Positions 5,299 through 11,667 of a stretch of DNA of 64,000 nucleotides are shown here, in pieces. Source of the stretch: Candidatus Latescibacterota bacterium (GTDB lineage Bacteria > Latescibacterota > UBA2968 > GCA-2709665); contig OZ244937.1 in NCBI GenBank assembly GCA_965222075.1, positions 3,456,001-3,520,000 of the forward strand. Reading direction: 5' to 3'. Each line of letters begins with the position of its first letter. Positions within the stretch are counted from its first letter, which is position 1. A program made the position numbers and the translations under genes. The notes beneath the pieces are model-generated. The model worked only from the letters and a program-made list of their open reading frames with translations, made no database searches and was not told the origin of the DNA.

Positions 5299-6291
5299 CT
5301 ATCCCAGTATAACAGCTATTCGGTTGTTCATATATTCGGTGATTTCCTTCAACTCCTGTTTGTTGTACGCCTCTTCAATGAGCCCCCAGCAGGTCAGGTA
5401 CCCAAGCGGATAGCGTAAACGATAGTACTCCAGGTGCAGCTCGTGGTCCTTATGAAGAGGGGCATCGTAGGATTTCCAAAAAGCCTCAAGACAGGAAGCC
5501 ATCAGATCCTCCCGATCGAATCCTAGATCATAGACCTCGTGGGAGAAGTGGTTGTACAATCTAGAAATATCCTGAATCCCGTACCCCGGCCCAACGCCCT
5601 CGAAGTCCAGCAGTCCCGTTACGGTATCTCGCGAAATCATGATGTTGGTTGCAGAGAAATCCCCGTGGGTTAGACAAGGCTGGACGTCTTCGCTAAAGAC
5701 CTCAATCCCTTTCCGGACCCAGCCCTCCAAGCGAGAACCCCATTTGGCAAAAGGGGTTTGAAAACTGGCTTTCACAATCTCTAATCCACGCTGTAGCTCA
5801 TATTCACGAGCTGTATGGCTGGTGTCGATTCCCTCCCGGGGTTTGACCCTGACCTCACCGTCTTTATATGCCAATCCTCCACCAAAGTGAGAGAAAGCAC
5901 TGATTTGGTGGAACGAAGAAAGTATTGTTCCAATCTGGGAATAGACAGCAACGGCTTCCTGGCGGGATAAACTCTCGCCCGCGTCTCCGAGGTTCTGCCC
6001 GTTGATGTACTCTTTGGTTACAAACTCCCCGGGCATGAGGCCAGCACGTAACCCTGTTTCGAGCACTTTGGGAACAGGAAGCTCAGTCTTGTCCTCCAGT
6101 ACGTTGATGACGAGGAGCTCGTGCTCAAGAGCATTAAGTTGACCGGGCGGGACATATTGGACCACAAATGGAGCAGTGTCCCTTGGGTGCACGAGATAAG
6201 TGGGTTTGCAGATGCCGCCTTCCAATTGCTCGAAATGCGCAATCGGTCTCCGGATAACCTCCTCAATGACATCAAGAGTCACTTCAGCCAT
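5299..6291 (-). CDS. APH/choline-kinase-like phosphotransferase (two-gene cassette)
   Basis: LPVPKVL, HGDFSATNIM, GLLDFE motifs. Confidence 0.85.
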   Translation of the reverse strand: MAEVTLDVIEEVIRRPIAHFEQLEGGICKPTYLVHPRDTAPFVVQYVPPGQLNALEHELLVINVLEDKTELPVPKVLETGLRAGLMPGEFVTKEYINGQNLGDAGESLSRQEAVAVYSQIGTILSSFHQISAFSHFGGGLAYKDGEVRVKPREGIDTSHTAREYELQRGLEIVKASFQTPFAKWGSRLEGWVRKGIEVFSEDVQPCLTHGDFSATNIMISRDTVTGLLDFEGVGPGYGIQDISRLYNHFSHEVYDLGFDREDLMASCLEAFWKSYDAPLHKDHELHLEYYRLRYPLGYLTCWGLIEEAYNKQELKEITEYMNNRIAVILG

Positions 6292-6321
6292 TTAGCCCCG
6301 TGTTGAGTTTGTTGTGCGGGA

Positions 6322-7113
6322 TCAGGATATCAGCTGCTTGGCCAAATCAATACCAGGATCATATCCCTCCAAAGCTGGTTCACCCTGAGAAACAGCAATG
6401 GTCGTGACCATTCGGTAGACCAGCGCGCGGATCAGTAGCTGGGGGAAGTGTTCAACGTGAGAGACATGCTCAATTAGACCTGACGGATCTGCATCCCGCC
6501 AACACACGGCATCCGCTACAACGATAGCAGACGCAAACCCAACTGGACGCCAATAGGGCGAAAAATCGATCACGGCCGGGGAAAGTCCTTCAGCGAAGAG
6601 GATATTCTCCGTAAGGTCACCGTGAATAAGCTGCGATGTGGTTACCATCGGGGAGCGCATGCGGAGTAACTCGGTGAGCCGCTTGTTTGCGAATGGCGGC
6701 TCTATCTCCTCCCAAGCTACAAAATCACCAAGTGACCAAGGATCATCTGAGCGATCGTCCAGGAATGGCGCCCGAGGCAGGTGCTCAATTGCCTTATGGA
6801 ATCGGTCTCCGGTGAGAATTACTTCTGCCCATCTTTCCTGCTCAGGGTGTTCGCCCTCAACCGCTTCTTGGGCACACCACCCGTCAACAACCCATCGTCC
6901 ATCGAAGGCCCGTACGGGAAGTGGCAGCCTAAAGCCTTCTGCTTTAACTGTTGATAGATGGTCGGCGAACCAACGCCAAACGTCAGGACTTTCGTCCGGT
7001 TTGAGGATAAGGTCTCCTGCCAGCCAGCAGCAACCCTCCCCGCCAGCTAGTTGTACCAAATCTGCGGTAACATTGAACGCTTGAATTACCCTATCAGGGG
7101 GCCGGGGGCTCAT
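6322..7113 (-). CDS. APH-like phosphotransferase (two-gene cassette)
   Basis: QLIHGDLTENILF, AVIDFSPYWRP motifs. Confidence 0.85.
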   Translation of the reverse strand: MSPRPPDRVIQAFNVTADLVQLAGGEGCCWLAGDLILKPDESPDVWRWFADHLSTVKAEGFRLPLPVRAFDGRWVVDGWCAQEAVEGEHPEQERWAEVILTGDRFHKAIEHLPRAPFLDDRSDDPWSLGDFVAWEEIEPPFANKRLTELLRMRSPMVTTSQLIHGDLTENILFAEGLSPAVIDFSPYWRPVGFASAIVVADAVCWRDADPSGLIEHVSHVEHFPQLLIRALVYRMVTTIAVSQGEPALEGYDPGIDLAKQLIS

Positions 7114-7184
7114 CTGTTATGATTCGGCAAGAGGTGGACATTCTTAGTTTGTGCGCAACTGTGGTGCTGTCTTGCCCCAGTTTT

Positions 7185-7301
7185 GCATAACGTTCTCGGC
7201 ACTCCCGACCTGCCGGCCTGTCCTCCGGAGCTGCGTAGCAGCGAAGGAGGGAGGCAGGTTTCTGCGGAGCGTCAGCGAAGCTCGGGAGTGCCGTGTTAAG
7301 C
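7185..7301 (-). repeat. attC site 5 (117 bp, nested palindromes in loop)
   Basis: GCATAAC..GGCACTCCCGA...TCGGGAGTGCC..GTTAAGC. Confidence 0.88.
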
Positions 7302-8344
7302 GCATGTGCTGGTTTTGGTGTCAGGAAATCGACTGGCGGTGCCGATCAATGGATCTTAACGAGCGAAATTCGTCCCAATGTTTAATCGAGGAAATATCAC
7401 CTGATGTCTTTATGGATCCGGGCCGATCATCTGATCTGTCGAAGTAGACCGCTTGCATACCGAGCTGCTTTGGTGCAGTATAATCGTTCTGTAGGCTGTC
7501 ACCGATGAATAAGACTCTATTGGCTTGATCAGCTTGCACATTCGCAAGCCCCTGTTGATAAATCTGTTTACCTGGCTTTTTCCATCCGAAGTCCGAGCGG
7601 GCGCGGTCCCATAGTGTGACAAAAAAGATAGCATAACATCCTCAATAATTTCTTATGGTTAGAGGAAAGTTTGGGAAATTTACTTCTAACCAACAAGAAT
7701 CAGAAAGGACGTTATGCTGGATCATATCATAGATCAAGTGACAGAAAAAGTCAACCAAAAGTTGCCTAAGATGGTGAGCGACTTGCAAGAGAGTCTTTCG
7801 TTTGCCGACTTGGAGCATGGCTTGATCGGTTTGCTCCAGGAGGTGGTGGGCATCGTCGTGAGTCCGGTGTTGAATCAGGTTTTTCAGGATGAGGCCTTGC
7901 TGTTTGGGCTGCGTCAGGCAGCCGGTAGTATGGGCTACAGATATAAGGAACATCGGCCTTTGACCGTACGGATTTTGGAAGGTGTAGAAGTTGAAGTCTC
8001 TTCGCCCTATTTCGTTAAGCGGGGTCGCAAACGGGGCAGGAAGAAGCGGGGTCCCAATGGTCGAGGGTGTCATCTGTTATTGGATGTGCTTGGGTTTATC
8101 GGTCAGTGCAGTCCGGAGTTTGTAGATGAAGCTGTGAAGTTGGCCTTGTTATGCCCCTCCTTTGAGGTGGCCACTCAGGTGTTGGATGCCCGTCAGATAA
8201 AGCTGGACAAAAAAACCCTTCGAAGATTGTGCAAAGCTTTAGGCGAATTGGGTCTGGAGCAGAGAGCCACGATTGCTCTAAAAGATGAGCTCTCCTTTTC
8301 AGGTCGCACGGTGTATATCGGCATCGATGGGGGTCGGATGCGGA

Positions 8345-8371
8345 CCTGCCCGCGCGCAGCGCGCAGGCGGG
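8345..8371. repeat. Micro-palindrome insertion 1 (27 bp, in frame)
   Basis: CCTGCCCGCGCGCAGCGCGCAGGCGGG between A|T. Confidence 0.8.
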
Positions 8372-8534
8372 TGCGTGAGCCCAAGCGGGGTCGAAAGCCG
8401 AAGGGAAAGAAATATCCCCGATATGATACACCTTGGAGAGAACCCAAGTTGTTTACCATCTACATGTTGGACGAAAAAGGTCGCGTCGAAAAATCGTGGA
8501 CGCCTATCCACGATGCGACTCGGGGCAATGCCGA

Positions 8535-8561
8535 CCTGCCTGTGCGGTGCACGCAGACAGG
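8535..8561. repeat. Micro-palindrome insertion 2 (27 bp, in frame)
   Basis: CCTGCCTGTGCGGTGCACGCAGACAGG between A|T. Confidence 0.88.
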
Positions 8562-8853
8562 TTTGATGTTTGAGATGCTGGAAGCTACCCTTTTGGAACT
8601 GCCCCTGCAACAGGCCGATCGGGTCGTGTTTATCGCCGATGGGGCAGAATGGATCTGGCCGAGGGTAGAGCGTCTGATCTGGAGGTTGGGGGTGCCTCCA
8701 AGCAAGGCGATCCAGATCCTCGACTATTACCATAATAGTGAAACCCTCTTTGAACTGGTGCAACTCCAACCGAAGCTTAAAGAAAAGGCACAACGTGCCC
8801 TGTATGAGACGTGGAAGACCTGGATGTGGAATGGGGAGCTTTTAAAACTCCGA

Positions 8854-8889
8854 CCTGCCTGTGCGTGCTGTCTCACGCACGCAGACAGG
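8854..8889. repeat. Micro-palindrome insertion 3 (36 bp, in frame)
   Basis: CCTGCCTGTGCGTGCTGTCTCACGCACGCAGACAGG between A|A. Confidence 0.88.
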
Positions 8890-8969
8890 AAAGAAGTGCT
8901 CCAGCAGCTTCGCGGGAAAAAACGAAAACAGGCCATCACATCCCTGAACCATTTCGACCGTCATGCGCA

Positions 8970-8994
8970 CCTGCCTGTGCCGATGGCAGACAGG
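8970..8994. repeat. Micro-palindrome insertion 4 (25 bp, frameshifting)
   Basis: CCTGCCTGTGCCGATGGCAGACAGG between A|T; removal restores HAHRMRYPTFK. Confidence 0.9.
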
Positions 8995-9035
8995 TCGAAT
9001 GCGCTATCCTACCTTCAAAGAACAGGGCCTTCCCA

Positions 9036-9062
9036 CCTGTCTGCGTGCCACGCACAGGCAGG
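9036..9062. repeat. Micro-palindrome insertion 5 (27 bp, reverse orientation)
   Basis: CCTGTCTGCGTGCCACGCACAGGCAGG between A|T; removal restores GLPIGSG. Confidence 0.9.
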
Positions 9063-9300
9063 TCGGAAGTGGACACGTCGAAAGCGCCATCCGTCGTGTC
9101 ATCAATCTTCGGATCAAAGCACCAGGCACGTTCTGGAAAAAAGACATGGGCGAATACTTCCTGTTTCTGCGCTCACAGTTGATCTGTGGAAGATGGCCTA
9201 TCTTCTTCCAGAATGTCACAGGACGATACCGAACGGGTGAGTTTGCCCAACATCTCTTTCCCTCTTCTCCGAAAATGGGTTTGCTCAAGACAGGGACAGA

Positions 9301-9325
9301 CCTGCCTGTGCCGCCGGCAGACAGG
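9301..9325. repeat. Micro-palindrome insertion 6 (25 bp)
   Basis: CCTGCCTGTGCCGCCGGCAGACAGG between A|T. Confidence 0.88.
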
Positions 9326-9935
9326 TGATCACTAACGCAATTAACCGCTTATTCAACAACTTAACACGACTTTCTATATGTCATACTTTGGGACTGCACC
9401 CAGTCCGAGCTGCCTAACATAAATTCAAAATATTTCCCAAGACCGGACTTTTGGATGCTCCGAGAAGGACCATCTGGAAGAAAGAAGTTCGACACGACAG
9501 CCAATCGGCACTTATCTATCCAGAAGTCGAGCATTTGCACAACGCCGGGTGTAAGTCTAAGGGTCTTGGGAAATTCCTGTTCGAAGTGCTCAATCATTTC
9601 ACAAACCAAACCTTCGATTTCACCTCTTCTCTCAGGGGCCTTCTCCTCAAGAACTGCACGGAAACGTTCCGGCAACGTAACTTCGCGCCAGGTCCCGTCG
9701 GACCACTGGTTCTCCCGCCACCTATCATAATCTTGCCTGAAATCAGTTGAAGAAGAATAGAACCCCGCCTCTACTGGCATGTGAGTGAGAAACCCGATCC
9801 CGGATTCATCTCCTGTGTCATCGAAATTGTCAATCAGTGTATTGAAGCAGTCGAAGAATATCCAATCAAACGAGCTCATTTTCCGGTATTTTGCACCCTT
9901 TGTCTTTTCGTTGAGCTAGCCAAAACCAACATTGC

Positions 9936-10014
9936 ACTTAACGTTCTCGGCACCCCCGAAGCCGCGAAGCGGTTTTGTGCGGAGCGAAGCGAAGCCGGGG
10001 GTGCCGTGTTAACC
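9936..10014 (-). repeat. attC site 6 (same body as attC2)
   Basis: ACTTAAC...GTTAACC; part of the duplicated cassette. Confidence 0.9.
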
Positions 10015-10078
10015 GATGTGGAGGTTTGTCGGATCACCAAAAAGTTCAAGAGGCAACCATCACCCCTTGCTTTTTTGT

Positions 10079-10384
10079 TCATTCATTTCCTGCCAGTGCT
10101 TCTGACCAACGCCTGGCCATTGTCCTCAATTCTTCCTCATGGGCTGGCCAATCGTGAAGCGTGGCAGGATCAAAATCAGCACCATTCGGCCAGACGAGTG
10201 TATGCACCTCAGGATCAATACGCACCTCATTAAAAAGCAATATATCCATCAGAGGTCCGAACAACTCGCCCTCAAGAACTGGACGAAAATCGATAACTCG
10301 AGTCGTTTCATCGTTGAATCTGACTTTGATCTGATAGGTCCCAACAATCTCAAATGAAACGACTCGATAGATTGGATGACTCAT
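10079..10384 (-). CDS. DUF2442-family protein (copy 2)
   Basis: Identical translation to 3261-3566. Confidence 0.85.
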   Translation of the reverse strand: MSHPIYRVVSFEIVGTYQIKVRFNDETTRVIDFRPVLEGELFGPLMDILLFNEVRIDPEVHTLVWPNGADFDPATLHDWPAHEEELRTMARRWSEALAGNE

Positions 10385-10395
10385 TCTATCCTCCC

Positions 10396-10665
10396 TTAAT
10401 GAAGCGGATCGATCGGCAAGGGAGGATGCCCAGATTGGAGCCGACCCCAATCTTCAAGGAGCTCCTCCTGATGCAACTCCGCCCAGGCTTCGACGAATCG
10501 TTGCTGACGGCGTGGCAAAGTCCCTGCGATCAATTCAATGGTATCCACAGCGTAAACGGCCACTTCATCTTGATAATAGGCGTGAAAATGAGGCCGATGG
10601 TGCTGTGTTCTCGGTTCGGCAAACATGCGAATGATGATTCCGAAAAACCGAGAAATTTCAGGCAT
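10396..10665 (-). CDS. DUF4160-family protein (copy 2)
   Basis: Identical translation to 3578-3847. Confidence 0.88.
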   Translation of the reverse strand: MPEISRFFGIIIRMFAEPRTQHHRPHFHAYYQDEVAVYAVDTIELIAGTLPRRQQRFVEAWAELHQEELLEDWGRLQSGHPPLPIDPLH

Positions 10666-10815
10666 TTGTTTTCCTTGCGATATGGATTTTATCGATGAAA
10701 TCCTGCGGGAAATAAACCGGATTATGCATGGGTAAGCAAAATCCAAATTGGGATGAATGGGAGTCTGTTTTTGCCCCTCAGAGCTTGACCAATTAGCCCT
10801 TAAAACCTCCATGTC

Positions 10816-10905
10816 GGTTAACGTTCTACCGATTGCCGAACCTGCGAAGCAGGTTGCCGAAGGCCAAGCGCCGAATGGCGCGCAGCGGCAAACGAGTTGT
10901 TAGAT
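10816..10905 (-). repeat. attC site 7
   Basis: GGTTAAC..TTGCCG...CGGCAA..GTTAGAT. Confidence 0.85.
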
Positions 10906-10945
10906 GAAGTGGGATCTAATTCGTATTCCAATATCAAACCACCTG

Positions 10946-11005
10946 GATTAAGGCTACAGCTCAGCCGCGGTGCTTGTCACCGTCGGCTGCAGTGCCTTGT
11001 TGGCC
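10946..11005 (-). repeat. Degenerate classical 60-bp attC inside the GNAT cassette
   Basis: Minus strand GGCCAACAAGGCACTGCAGCCGACGG...CCGCGGCTGAGCTGTAGCCTTAATC; R' mutated GTT to CTT; matching GTTGGCC upstream of the gene (11491-11497). Confidence 0.7.
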
Positions 11006-11476
11006 GTTTATTCCTTTGTCCAGGTCCAGTCTGTACCGGCATGTCGGCCCGAGTTCTCCTGGCTCCCGTTCGGTTTCGATGGTGTCGACGTATGTCGCCC
11101 CGATCAACTCACAGGTCCTTCTGGATGCGTCGTTATCGGGACGGCAAGTGATCAACAGCGAGTTCAGTCCATGGCTAAGAGCAAGGGGGAACAGGAGGCG
11201 GCAACTGCGGGCAGCACATCTGTTCCCACGGTATTCCTCCTGAACATCGTAGCTCAGGTTGCCTCCATACTGTTCGAGCCTTTCCGTGCACCGGGTCCTG
11301 AGGCAGATGCTGCCGATCGTCGCCCCGCTGCTAATAAGCCGCATCTCGAAACGGTACTCGGGCACCCGTCCCTTCTCAGAATCGGACGGAAGCGTCTCGG
11401 TGAGGACAAGCTCAAGATCTCCGTCGACCAAGTGTCCTGGATCGTGGAATTCACATTCGGGATTCTTCCGGGTCAT
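10961..11476 (-). CDS. GNAT-family acetyltransferase (cassette)
   Basis: GNLSYDVQEEYRGNRCA, LLITCRPDNDASRRTCELIGA. Confidence 0.85.
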   Translation of the reverse strand: MTRKNPECEFHDPGHLVDGDLELVLTETLPSDSEKGRVPEYRFEMRLISSGATIGSICLRTRCTERLEQYGGNLSYDVQEEYRGNRCAARSCRLLFPLALSHGLNSLLITCRPDNDASRRTCELIGATYVDTIETEREPGELGPTCRYRLDLDKGINGQQGTAADGDKHRG

Positions 11477-11579
11477 CCGGTATTCTCTGCGGCCAACTAG
11501 TGATTGAGCGGTGAATATGCAGAATATCTCCCGCTATCTGGAGATATTCTGCAATGATCTGATTTTACGTTTCCATTTC

Positions 11580-11667
11580 ATCTAACGTTCTCGGCACCCA
11601 CGAACCTGCCGGAGGTAGGTTGGGCGGAAGCCCGAACGGGCTGGAGCCGTGGGTGCTCGTGTTACGC
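11580..11667 (-). repeat. attC site 8
   Basis: ATCTAAC..GCACCCACG...CGTGGGTGC..GTTACGC. Confidence 0.88.

What the first reader, a model, noticed from the sequence alone, without database searches (positions are those of the whole stretch)
8345..9325. Six TSD-less CCTG...CAGG micro-palindromes inserted into one transposase
Seen: six 25-36 bp hairpins with arms CCTGCCTGTGC.../...GCAGACAGG and variable loops, in both orientations, five at A|T and one at A|A, with no target duplication. Exact removal restores conserved motifs (RMRYPTFKEQGLPIGSGHVES) and a continuous 484-aa ORF. Four are in frame, two frameshift. I saw none in the 44 kb of housekeeping DNA. Established: REP elements spread by RAYT/HUH nucleases and Rickettsia palindromic elements enter ORFs, but those are usually longer or intergenic. 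Inference: a minimal mobile element family, or a process that writes hairpins into mobile DNA and inactivates it; no mobilising enzyme is encoded in this window.
Basis: partly seen in the sequence, partly recalled or inferred. Interest (0 to 1): 0.85.

Follow-up and report, generated by a model that had tools for sequence, protein, structure and literature searches.

The report
Tiny mobile hairpins peppering a genome
The six small hairpins in this transposase gene are real, clean insertions, but they belong to a genome-wide family of more than 200 REP-like mini-palindromes that also sit in frame inside ordinary housekeeping genes, so they are not a device aimed at mobile DNA.

Summary
Six 25-36 bp hairpins lie at the stated places in an ISKra4-family IS (window 7599-9401). 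A second IS copy in the same genome lacks four of them, exactly and with no target duplication. Homologous transposases are 484 aa long and lack all six segments.

The hairpins are not specific to mobile DNA. The 5.36 Mb Latescibacterota genome holds 216 strict copies. Most are non-coding, but at least 36 lie in frame in confident genes such as PurL, UvrA, UvrD, AcrB and Cas4-Cas1. Five such sites were checked and all are empty in close relatives.

Each element has a conserved 8-bp foot (CCTGCCTG/CAGRCAGG), a 2-nt bulge and a variable, always-paired top. They are singletons that insert at 5'-C-N-S-R|Y-3' in one orientation.

Copy number is patchy: at least 60 copies in 9 of 168 genomes of the phylum. 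It tracks two RAYT (Y1 HUH transposase) orthogroups, but no RAYT gene is flanked by these hairpins and there is no replication-strand bias.

Best reading: a new REP-like family of single-hairpin, non-autonomous elements, probably moved as single-stranded DNA by an HUH enzyme acting in trans. The enzyme is unproven.

The parts
7599..9401 (+). ISKra4-family insertion sequence (1803 bp with its six hairpins). Terminal inverted repeats lie at 7599-7620 and 9380-9401.
   Evidence: The alignment with the second copy starts and ends at these bases. NCBIfam NF033572 ISKra4 matches at E 8.5e-16 and Pfam UPF0236 also matches. The terminal repeats were read.
7590..7598 (.). Left copy of the IS's own 9-bp target duplication, AGTCCGAGC
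   Evidence: The same 9 bases stand at 9402-9410. Copy B has a different 9-bp duplication, TCTTCGGTT.
9402..9410 (.). Right copy of the IS's 9-bp target duplication
7714..9335 (+). Transposase gene, interrupted. It reads as 484 aa once the six hairpins are removed. As it stands it is broken by the two 25-bp elements.
   Evidence: ORFs 7714-9240 and 8963-9328. Excision in a script gives 484 aa. Homologues are 484 aa.
8345..8371 (+). Hairpin 1: 27 bp, variant subfamily CCTGCCCG...CAGGCGGG, in frame. Empty site GCGGA|TGCG.
   Evidence: Absent from IS copy B. Exact 27-mers elsewhere in the genome. Left out in contigs of runs X1 and X4.
8535..8561 (+). Hairpin 2: 27 bp, type II (bulge TG, 3' end CAGACAGG), in frame. 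Empty site GCCGA|TTTG.
   Evidence: Absent from copy B. Present in the 493-aa homologue P0001, which lacks hairpins 3 and 5. The same 27-mer is the dominant copy in G027.
8854..8889 (+). Hairpin 3: 36 bp, type II, in frame, at TCCGA|AAAG
   Evidence: Shared by both IS copies. Absent from all seven aligned homologues.
8970..8994 (+). Hairpin 4: 25 bp, type II, shifts the frame. Empty site GCGCA|TCGA.
   Evidence: Absent from copy B.
9036..9062 (-). Hairpin 5: 27 bp, type II in the opposite orientation, in frame. It splits the conserved LP|IGSGHVES motif.
   Evidence: Shared by both IS copies. Absent from all seven aligned homologues.
9301..9325 (+). Hairpin 6: 25 bp, type II, 10 nt before the stop codon. 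Empty site ACAGA|TGAT.
   Evidence: Absent from copy B. Left out in contigs of runs X4 and X18.

Best explanation
The six hairpins belong to a genome-wide family of REP-like, non-autonomous, single-hairpin mobile elements of 21-36 bp, found in a clade of Candidatus Latescibacterota.

Each element is one imperfect palindrome. It has a conserved 8-bp foot (5' CCTGCCTG, 3' CAGGCAGG or CAGACAGG), a 2-nt bulge on the 5' side (CG or TG) and a variable but always-paired upper stem.

Shown here:
- Single elements enter DNA exactly, with no target duplication.
- They insert in one orientation behind a loose tetranucleotide (C-N-S-R, most often CCGA) and before a pyrimidine.
- Selection then removes those that hurt. 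They pile up in non-coding DNA and dead or dispensable DNA such as this IS. In real genes almost only lengths that are multiples of 3 survive, as 7-12 extra residues.

Inferred, not shown:
- They move as folded single-stranded DNA.
- They are cut at the two feet and rejoined by a Y1 HUH transposase of the RAYT class acting in trans.
- The candidate in this genome is the RAYT-like gene at G000 3242105-3242865 (L148 1105-1865).
- The target tetranucleotide resembles the element's own 3' end, CAGG. That is what one would expect if a single recognition step serves both cuts.
For: The family is real and mobile:
- There are 241 strict pattern matches in the genome, and 0 for the reversed control pattern. 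That makes 216 non-nested copies.
- It is among the most abundant dispersed 12-mers in the genome.
- There are up to 22 identical copies of one 33-mer.
- The two IS copies differ by 4 exact hairpin gaps against 9 substitutions.
- 33 of 419 relaxed candidates have an uninterrupted paralogous empty site.
- Some elements are nested inside others.
- PurL (2 sites), UvrA (2) and the xanthine-dehydrogenase-like gene (1) are filled only in G000. PurL is empty in 11 of 11 relatives; the other three sites are empty in 5 of 5, including the same-genus genome at 94-97% identity.
- Different genomes are dominated by different master sequences.

Target rule. In 22 distinct oriented sites with a known empty form, position -4 is C in 16, -1 is a purine in 19 and +1 is a pyrimidine in 20. 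Among all 96 type II copies, -4 is C in 76.

Selection. 35 of 36 copies in confident coding sequence have lengths that are multiples of 3, against 99 of 130 non-coding copies (Fisher p 0.003).

Structure. There are 22 different inner stems among 69 elements, all Watson-Crick paired. The bulge base and the 3'-arm base are perfectly linked (42 CG/G, 27 TG/A, none mixed).

Hints of an HUH enzyme:
- Insertion leaves no duplication, is oriented, and follows a tetranucleotide.
- The stem has conserved irregularities. E. coli TnpA-REP needs such irregularities and acts only on single strands (passages of PMC3333891).
- Of 41 related genomes, 8 of the 9 with at least 60 copies carry an orthologue of RAYT-A or RAYT-B. 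Only 2 of the 32 with at most 24 copies do.
- RAYT-A passes the NCBIfam RAYT cut-off at 104 bits against a threshold of 80.
- Presence patterns of hairpins 2, 3 and 5 across three IS versions show all four combinations. That needs precise loss, repeated gain at one site, or recombination.
Against: - No RAYT gene is flanked by these hairpins. The G000 gene and the RAYT-A genes are flanked by GTAG-tagged palindromes of other families. Only 1 of 6 RAYT-A loci has a single CCTG hairpin nearby.
- G015 has 107 copies but neither orthogroup. The hairpin-free genomes G006 and G010 do have RAYT-like genes.
- The two hairpin types do not sort with the two RAYT groups.
- There is no replication-strand bias (48:47 and 28:36). 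IS200/IS605 elements prefer the lagging-strand template (passage of PMC3333891).
- A single hairpin as the whole moving unit fits neither the two-ended IS608 model nor the REPIN doublet model.
- The G000 RAYT-like protein scores below the NCBIfam cut-off (55.6 bits against 80).
- Related genomes are not independent, so the co-occurrence overstates the link.
Confidence: 0.5

Rival explanations
1. The hairpins are a mobile family, but a different kind of enzyme moves them. It could be a recombinase or nuclease that reads the 25-36 bp palindrome in double-stranded or cruciform DNA, or an enzyme class not yet linked to such elements. On this view the RAYT co-occurrence only marks genomes that tolerate mobile DNA.
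For: - There is no REPtron arrangement.
- G015 is rich in hairpins but has neither RAYT orthogroup.
- There is no replication-strand bias.
- The bases at -1 and +1 are complementary in 63 of 89 distinct type II copies, with G.T in 10 more. The insertion point therefore continues the stem symmetrically.
- The elements are single hairpins, not doublets.
Against: - No candidate gene emerged. The genes bracketed by hairpins look like a heptosyltransferase and a methyltransferase.
- The one-sided target motif at -4 and the conserved strand asymmetry of the stem (bulge, C.A mismatch) point to a strand-specific, single-strand reaction.
Confidence: 0.3
2. The family is now immobile. The copies are relics of old bursts, and the differences between the IS copies arose by precise deletion of palindromes or by recombination between IS copies, not by new insertion.
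For: - The four-combination pattern among IS versions is compatible with loss or recombination.
- G015 has many copies but no intact Y1 gene detected by Pfam.
- Palindromes are known to be unstable (recalled, from no call).
Against: - The IS is found in none of the 40 related genomes, yet it carries six resident-type hairpins. They must have entered after it arrived.
- The gene sites are empty in the same-genus genome.
- Slippage deletion needs flanking direct repeats, and the exact sites have none.
Confidence: 0.1
3. One reading: a host or selfish process writes hairpins specifically into mobile DNA to inactivate it.
For: - Six hairpins lie in 1.8 kb of one IS.
- Repeated DNA makes up 2.9% of the genome but holds 43 of 216 copies.
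- Several clusters lie in broken transposase genes: DDE_Tnp_4, DDE_5, DDE_Tnp_1, rve, IS1595.
Against: - 173 of 216 copies lie outside repeated DNA.
- Housekeeping genes are hit.
- Four of the six elements here, and both in copy B, are in frame. Copy B keeps an open 505-aa frame.
- The density in repeats is only about 1.6 times that in non-coding DNA.
- Duplication of already-filled repeats inflates the count.
Confidence: 0.05
4. Sequencing or assembly artefact.
For: None was found. The genome is a single-contig metagenome assembly.
Against: - Contigs of four public runs from four studies support the elements and their empty forms.
- The same sequences occur in many other assemblies, fragmented ones included.
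- Protein databases hold the hairpin-coded segments independently.
Confidence: 0.01

Closest known systems
REP sequences and their RAYT (TnpA-REP) transposases, as in E. coli and Pseudomonas
   Same: - Both are 20-40 bp imperfect palindromes with hundreds of dispersed copies, mostly extragenic.
- Copy number is patchy between close relatives.
- Both have conserved non-complementary bases in the stem.
- RAYT-class genes are present in the same genomes (passages of PMC3333891 and PMC3733652).
   Different: - There is no GTAG tag. The 5' neighbour is a loose C-N-S-R that already exists in the target.
- The RAYT genes here are flanked by other, GTAG-tagged palindromes and not by these hairpins.
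- The elements are not arranged as BIME or REPIN pairs.
Intragenic GTAG- and CGTC-tagged REPs (Di Nocera et al. 2013, PMC3733652)
   Same: That paper reports REPs lying wholly inside known genes, often uvrA, uvrB, uvrD, recBCD and polA. It also reports REP families (CGTC) with no dedicated transposase (passages read). Here UvrA carries two insertions and UvrD one.
   Different: - The terminal sequence is different, with neither tag.
- This is a new phylum for such elements.
- Here the insertions are single units of 7-12 residues, with exact empty sites both in paralogous DNA and in sister genomes.
- I did not read that paper's Additional file 3, which lists the intragenic cases.
REPINs (Bertels and Rainey 2011)
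   Same: Both are short, non-autonomous and present as a population of sequence variants within a genome. (I saw search listings and the starts of abstracts only.)
   Different: REPINs are doublets of two inverted REPs, and singlets are held to be remnants. Here singlets are the rule: only 32 of 215 neighbouring pairs lie within 300 nt, with no preferred spacing or orientation. Singlets are also what is seen inserted.
IS200/IS605 family (IS608, ISDra2) single-strand 'peel and paste' transposition
   Same: Neither has terminal inverted repeats of the classical kind or a target duplication. Both insert in one orientation behind a short specific sequence, and both have hairpins as the recognised structure (passage in PMC3333891).
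   Different: - There is no transposase gene inside the element.
- One hairpin stands in place of separate left and right ends.
- Target specificity is looser.
- There is no lagging-strand bias.
- The resident IS200-type TnpA genes do not track hairpin numbers: G004 has 32 matches and 2 hairpins, G038 has 75 matches and 1 hairpin.
Rickettsia palindromic elements (RPE)
   Same: Both are palindromic repeats inserted in frame into genes that probably stay functional. (This is as cited in passages of PMC3733652; I did not read the original papers.)
   Different: As I recall, RPEs are about 100-150 bp. These are 21-36 bp, unrelated in sequence, and most copies are non-coding.

Membership tests
REP (repetitive extragenic palindrome) | Short (20-40 bp) imperfect palindrome that can fold as a hairpin | tested here: met
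   Lengths are 21-36 bp. Of 517 candidates, 263 fold with closed ends at -8 kcal/mol or lower. All 69 elements with a scorable inner stem are Watson-Crick paired.
REP (repetitive extragenic palindrome) | High copy number, dispersed, mainly outside genes | tested here: met
   There are 216 strict copies. 130 lie in the 14% of the genome outside called ORFs, and 36 lie in the 66% that is confident coding interior. The gene calls are my own crude ORF model.
REP (repetitive extragenic palindrome) | Conserved GTAG (or CGTC) tag at one end | tested here: not met
   The 5' flank consensus is C-N-S-R; CCGA is commonest, in 18 of 89. The flank is present in the empty sites, so it belongs to the target.
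REP (repetitive extragenic palindrome) | Preference for spacers between convergent or same-direction genes | tested here: inconclusive
   Densities are 0.13 per kb (convergent), 0.19 (divergent) and 0.10-0.15 (tandem). The gene calls are crude, so I draw no conclusion.
REPtron (RAYT gene flanked by its own REPs) | A RAYT gene bracketed by copies of the same repeat | tested here: not met
   The G000 RAYT-like gene has no CCTG hairpin within 7 kb and is bracketed by GTAG-tagged palindromes of another family. Of 6 RAYT-A loci, 1 has one hairpin 7 bp after the stop. Of 5 RAYT-B loci, none has one.
REPtron (RAYT gene flanked by its own REPs) | Mobilisation by the RAYT protein | not testable with these tools
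   There is only co-occurrence: 8 of 9 hairpin-rich genomes against 2 of 32 hairpin-poor genomes carry a RAYT-A or RAYT-B orthologue.
REPIN | Two REPs in inverted orientation at a set distance form the mobile unit | tested here: not met
   Only 32 of 215 neighbouring pairs lie within 300 nt, in all orientations and with no common spacing. Single units are what is inserted.
IS200/IS605-type transposition | No target duplication, exact junctions | tested here: met
   Four of 4 polymorphic IS sites, 2 of 2 PurL sites at DNA level, and 33 paralogous empty sites aligned across the junction with 0-2 gaps.
IS200/IS605-type transposition | Oriented insertion 3' of a specific tetra- or pentanucleotide | tested here: met
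   Position -4 is C in 16 of 22 and -1 is a purine in 19 of 22 verified oriented targets. This is looser than the fixed TTAC-type sites (recalled).
IS200/IS605-type transposition | Bias for the lagging-strand template | tested here: not met
   Type I 48:47 and type II 28:36 among unique-sequence copies. With repeats included the figure is 38:58, p 0.05.
IS200/IS605-type transposition | Element encodes TnpA and has distinct left and right subterminal hairpins | tested here: not met
   The elements are 21-36 bp, single hairpins, with no coding capacity.
MITE (moved by a DDE transposase) | Terminal inverted repeats plus a target-site duplication of fixed length | tested here: not met
   No duplication at any verified site. 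By contrast the host IS itself has a 9-bp duplication.
Rickettsia palindromic elements | In-frame insertion into conserved protein genes | tested here: met
   Hits include AcrB, HsdR, a Mo-hydroxylase, UvrA, PurL, a hydantoinase, UvrD and Cas4-Cas1. Five sites were checked and all are absent from relatives.
Rickettsia palindromic elements | Element length of about 100-150 bp and RPE sequence families | tested here: not met
   Lengths are 21-36 bp. Sequence likeness to RPEs was not tested. The RPE length is recalled.

The most novel reading that the evidence does not exclude
These are the smallest self-contained mobile units yet documented. A single 21-36 nt hairpin is cut out and pasted as such. 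Its duplicated 5' CCTG acts once as the partner of its own 3' CAGG and once as the guide that picks CAGG-like (C-N-S-R) targets. The perfectly linked base change between the bulge and the 3' arm supports this second, slipped pairing.

The family may also be shaped for life inside genes. Lengths cluster at 27, 30, 33 and 36. There is no stop codon in any of the six frames in 196 of 216 copies, against 94 of 216 shuffles. The elements would then act as in-frame micro-transposons that add 7-12-residue loops to proteins, DNA-repair proteins included.

The enzyme may be a RAYT acting away from its own flanking repeats, or something not yet known.
Probability: 0.2. Interest if true: 0.8.

Novelty: new variant of a known kind. 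Interest (0 to 1): 0.55.

Why it matters
How REP-type palindromes spread is still argued. The leading view holds that doublets (REPINs or BIMEs) are the moving unit and that singlets are debris.

This genome offers unusually clean natural experiments:
- two near-identical IS copies that differ by four single-hairpin gaps;
- about thirty further filled and empty pairs;
- housekeeping genes filled in one species and empty in its sister.

Together they give an exact insertion rule for single hairpins: no duplication, one orientation, C-N-S-R|Y. They also give testable enzyme candidates.

The data show that a free-living-sized genome of an uncultured phylum tolerates dozens of 7-12-residue insertions in proteins such as PurL, UvrA, UvrD, AcrB and Cas4-Cas1. 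This bears on protein evolution and on gene annotation, because frameshifting 25-mers split genes.

For the scan itself, the lesson is that a striking local cluster can be the visible tip of a genome-wide repeat family.

Tried and rejected
- RAYT flanked by the hairpins. I looked at both Pfam Y1_Tnp loci of G000. One is an ordinary IS200 with its own end hairpins. The other is a decayed fragment that merely has one hairpin 150 bp away. I then looked at the RAYT-like gene found with a relative's protein. No REPtron-like arrangement turned up.
- IS200-type TnpA as the mover. Rejected: G004 has 32 matches and G038 has 75, with 2 and 1 hairpins.
- Type I with RAYT-A and type II with RAYT-B. Rejected.
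- Replication-strand, coding-strand and flank-GC effects. No replication-strand or coding-strand effect. Flank GC is 0.552 against 0.534 in non-coding DNA (p 0.02) and shows no difference in ORFs.
- Doublet structure. None.
- Genes bracketed by two hairpins as enzyme candidates. These are a heptosyltransferase-like gene, a methyltransferase-like gene, Glu-tRNA synthetase and a DDE transposase, so no lead. A third, 827-aa gene (L177) was never annotated because one search failed.
- Two of the few solo GTAG palindromes lie within 50 nt of a CCTG hairpin. This is too few to interpret.
- My first estimate, that half of the copies are in ORFs (152 of 317), used a lax catalogue and stop-to-stop ORFs. 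The strict figures replace it.
- A whole-genome self-BLAST gave no answer. A 24-mer count replaced it.
- Earlier notes of this scan: none for this genome.
- Laid contigs. A joint that skips 8854-8889 in X1 and X3 is marked 'between: not known', so I do not count it as an empty site for hairpin 3. The RNA run X18 covers parts of the IS only, and I make no claim about expression.
- The IS as a target because of low GC. The whole neighbourhood is at 47-55% GC against 59% for the genome, but hairpin flanks genome-wide are not GC-poor.
Full report
**1. The observation**

The region was read directly. Six short palindromes stand at 8345-8371, 8535-8561, 8854-8889, 8970-8994, 9036-9062 and 9301-9325. 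Their lengths are 27, 27, 36, 25, 27 and 25 bp.

Five share the ends CCTGCCTGTG...CAGACAGG, and one of these (9036) is in the opposite orientation. The first is a variant, CCTGCCCG...CAGGCGGG. Five sit between A and T and one between A and A.

The strict pattern matches 5 times in the window and never in 100 shuffles.

**2. The host of the six**

They lie in an insertion sequence of the ISKra4 family (NCBIfam NF033572, E 8.5e-16; Pfam UPF0236). It spans window 7599-9401, has 22-bp terminal inverted repeats and its own 9-bp target duplication, AGTCCGAGC.

A database search with the second copy's protein returns many homologues of exactly 484 aa. In an alignment of seven of them (55-99% identity), none has the segments coded by hairpins 3 and 5. 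Only one, P0001 at 493 aa, has the segment of hairpin 2. The refuting outcome 'homologues contain these segments natively' therefore did not occur.

**3. Real empty sites**

The genome in which the window lies is a single 5.36 Mb contig of 59% GC. It holds one more copy of the IS, at 2831294-2832990, with a different 9-bp duplication.

The two copies differ by 9 substitutions and by four gaps. The gaps coincide to the base with hairpins 1, 2, 4 and 6, and hairpins 3 and 5 are shared. The empty sites read GCGGA|TGCG, GCCGA|TTTG, GCGCA|TCGA and ACAGA|TGAT. Nothing is duplicated or lost.

Copy B keeps an open 505-aa frame with its two in-frame inserts.

Contigs of four public runs from four studies were laid on the IS:
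- One contig in X1 lacks hairpin 1.
- One in X4 lacks 54 bases, the summed length of hairpins 1 and 2.
- Contigs in X4 and X18 lack hairpin 6.
- One X1 contig runs through hairpins 4, 5 and 6 without a gap.

The elements are therefore not an assembly artefact.

**4. Not a property of this IS**

The same pattern occurs 241 times in the genome. Its 12-mers are among the most frequent dispersed words.

After removing nested matches there are 216 strict copies of 36 bp or less. With my own rough gene model they divide as follows:

| Location | Copies | Share of genome |
|---|---|---|
| Outside any called ORF | 130 | 14% |
| Weak ORFs or near ORF ends | 50 | not computed |
| Interior of confident coding frames | 36 | 66% |

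Pfam names many of the hosts: AcrB-type transporter, type I restriction R subunit, molybdenum hydroxylase, a double UvrA, PurL, hydantoinase, UvrD, Cas4-Cas1 and others.

I checked five such sites against relatives.
- In PurL, a 33-nt and a 21-nt hairpin are absent from all 11 relatives compared. At DNA level they are exact insertions relative to the same-genus genome.
- In UvrA (two sites) and the hydroxylase (one site), all 5 relatives compared lack the insert.

A further 33 of 419 loosely defined candidates have an uninterrupted paralogous empty site in the same genome. Most of these lie in other repeats, and one of the 33 is plainly spurious.

**5. Anatomy**

Each element has three parts:
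- an outer 8-bp stem, CCTGCCTG pairing with CAGGCAGG or CAGACAGG;
- two unpaired bases on the 5' side, CG or TG;
- an inner stem of 4-6 pairs with a loop of 2-8 nt.

Among 69 elements with a scorable inner stem there are 22 different inner stems, all Watson-Crick paired. The bulge base and the fifth base from the 3' end are perfectly linked: 42 are CG with G, 27 are TG with A, and none is mixed. This defines two lineages, which I call types I and II.

The two linked bases are complementary to each other. A second, slipped pairing of the repeated CCTG is therefore possible. Because only two states exist, this is a hint and not proof.

Lengths cluster at 33 (93 copies), 27 (50), 30 (19), 25 (17) and 36 (13). 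No stop codon occurs in any of the six frames in 196 of 216 copies, against 94 of 216 shuffled versions. The copies are related to each other, so this comparison overstates independence.

**6. Insertion rule**

For all 96 type II copies set in one orientation, the base four positions upstream is C in 76, the base just upstream is A or G in 93, and the base just downstream is T or C in 87. CCGA is the commonest upstream tetranucleotide, in 18 of 89 distinct copies. The two bases flanking the element are complementary in 63 of 89.

The same holds for the 22 distinct oriented sites whose empty form is known: C at -4 in 16, a purine at -1 in 19 and a pyrimidine at +1 in 20. The motif is therefore a preference for a target and not part of the element.

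The consensus C-N-S-R fits the element's own last four bases, CAGG.

The elements are singletons. Only 32 of 215 neighbouring pairs lie within 300 nt, with no preferred spacing or orientation.

**7. Selection**

In confident coding interiors 35 of 36 copies have a length divisible by three, against 99 of 130 in non-coding DNA (Fisher p 0.003). Frameshifting copies are thus removed from live genes. They persist in this IS copy, whose transposase gene the two 25-mers break.

Repeated DNA of 300 bp or more makes up 2.9% of the genome and holds 43 of 216 copies. That is 0.27 per kb, against 0.17 per kb in non-coding DNA overall. Several clusters lie in broken transposase genes.

This enrichment is what relaxed selection and the copying of already-filled repeats would give. 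It does not call for a process aimed at mobile DNA. Six in 1.8 kb is still about twelve times the repeat-DNA average, and I cannot explain that.

**8. Distribution**

PurL relatives place the genome in Candidatus Latescibacterota. Among 168 genomes of the phylum held, 73 have at least one match, but only 9 have 60 or more: 241, 243, 225, 140, 139, 107, 99, 88 and 66. All nine lie in one order. Eight are in the window's own family, and within one genus the counts range from 0 to 243.

Different genomes are dominated by different variants. A few exact copies occur in distant families such as G047. That could reflect transfer or mis-binned contigs.

The IS itself is found in none of the 40 relatives; only its hairpins match. 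The hairpins therefore entered it in this lineage.

**9. The enzyme**

Pfam Y1_Tnp finds two loci in G000: an ordinary IS200 with its own end hairpins, and a decayed fragment. IS200-type genes do not track hairpin numbers.

A 201-aa protein in relatives, which I call RAYT-A, passes NCBIfam's cut-off for REP-associated tyrosine transposase at 104 bits against 80. Orthologues of at least 77% identity occur in exactly six genomes, all hairpin-rich.

G000 has a different RAYT-like gene, RAYT-B, at 3242105-3242865. It has HUH and Tyr motifs and scores 55.6 bits, below the cut-off. Orthologues of at least 70% identity occur in G009, G027, G012 and, with a stop codon, G025.

Taken together, 8 of the 9 genomes with at least 60 copies carry RAYT-A or RAYT-B, against 2 of the 32 with at most 24 copies. 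Those two have 16 and 22 copies.

Results against the link:
- Both genes are bracketed by GTAG-tagged palindromes of other families and not by CCTG hairpins. The sole exception is one hairpin 7 bp after the RAYT-A stop in G029.
- G015 has 107 copies and neither orthogroup.
- Hairpin-free G006 and G010 have other RAYT-like genes.
- The hairpin types do not sort with the RAYT groups.
- There is no replication-strand bias: 48:47 and 28:36. Such a bias is described for IS200/IS605 in the passage of PMC3333891 that I read.

**10. Gain, loss or both**

Across three versions of the IS, hairpin 2 and hairpins 3 and 5 occur in all four combinations:
- the window copy has all three;
- copy B has 3 and 5;
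- P0001 has 2 only;
- the other homologues have none.

A single order of insertions cannot give this pattern. It needs precise loss, repeated insertion of the same sequence at the same site, or recombination between copies. The first two are what a cut-and-rejoin enzyme would do. I could not tell the three apart.

**11. Comparison with what is known**

REPs are 20-40 bp palindromes moved, it is thought, by RAYTs. E. coli TnpA-REP binds only single-stranded REPs, needs the GTAG tag and the mismatch in the stem, and cuts at C|T (passages of PMC3333891).

Di Nocera and colleagues described GTAG- and CGTC-tagged REPs in many phyla. They reported REPs inside known genes, notably uvrA, uvrB, uvrD, recBCD and polA, and CGTC families without a transposase of their own (abstract and passages of PMC3733652). 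That paper also mentions untagged REP-like families.

REPINs, as doublets, are held to be the mobile unit (search listing and abstract starts only).

My three literature searches found no description of such elements in Latescibacterota. That is a statement about those searches only.

The family here works like a REP but fails the tag test, the REPtron test and the doublet test. I therefore file it as a new variant of the REP kind and not as a member of the GTAG, CGTC or REPIN families.

**12. Verdict**

The 'minimal mobile element family' reading is right. The 'inactivation of mobile DNA' reading is not.

The mechanism I commit to is single-strand cut-and-paste by an HUH enzyme of the RAYT class acting in trans. 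I give it about even odds. The main rival is an enzyme of another kind, not yet identified.

Noticed in passing
L148 500-2010 (G000 3241500-3243010): The RAYT-like gene of this genome is bracketed by two direct copies of a roughly 130-bp block. Each block holds three GTAG/CTAC-tagged palindromes. Only about four further copies of these palindromes occur in the genome, and two of them lie within 50 nt of a CCTG hairpin.
   Followed up: partly
G000, whole genome; insertion sites listed: A second abundant repeat family exists (12-mers AAGAAAAAGGCC 105 times, GCGGAAAAGCCC 56 times). The 33-nt hairpin sits at one fixed site in several of its copies (gaagggcg|ccgctca), while other copies are empty.
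   Followed up: no
G000, whole genome; L021 for the cas gene: About 88-91 copies of a CRISPR-like repeat (words such as GTTTCAATCCTT and CTTCCACCAGAA) point to a large array. The Cas4-Cas1 fusion gene itself carries an in-frame 30-nt hairpin.
   Followed up: no
L007 (UvrA), around residue 1161: The second UvrA insert is 20 residues (60 nt), more than the 33-nt hairpin found there. A second, degenerate element probably lies beside it, as in PurL, where a 33-mer and a 21-mer sit 14 nt apart.
   Followed up: partly
G002, G003, G028, G029: A second RAYT-like paralogue (47-50% identical to RAYT-A) lies within open frames of 1203-1441 aa, 1.5-14 kb from RAYT-A. This is either a chance long frame in GC-rich DNA or a fused protein.
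   Followed up: no
G117: The control pattern (the hairpin pattern read backwards) occurs 55 times in this one genome and at most 9 times in any other. G117 probably has a different palindromic repeat family of its own.
   Followed up: no
G047, G064, G079: Exact copies of G000's commonest hairpins occur at low number in genomes of other families of the phylum. This is either horizontal spread or contigs binned into the wrong genome.
   Followed up: no
window 7630-7718: A 43-nt inverted repeat (72% complementary, 3 nt apart) lies inside the IS just upstream of, and overlapping, the transposase start codon. It may regulate transposase expression.
   Followed up: no
G000 whole genome: There is a very strong GC skew (about 0.1) with turning points near 1.376 Mb and 4.223 Mb. 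A segment at 4.6-4.8 Mb has the opposite sign, which suggests a recent inversion.
   Followed up: no
window 5600-11600: The whole neighbourhood of the IS is at 47-55% GC against 59% for the genome. The IS seems to sit in a larger low-GC island.
   Followed up: no
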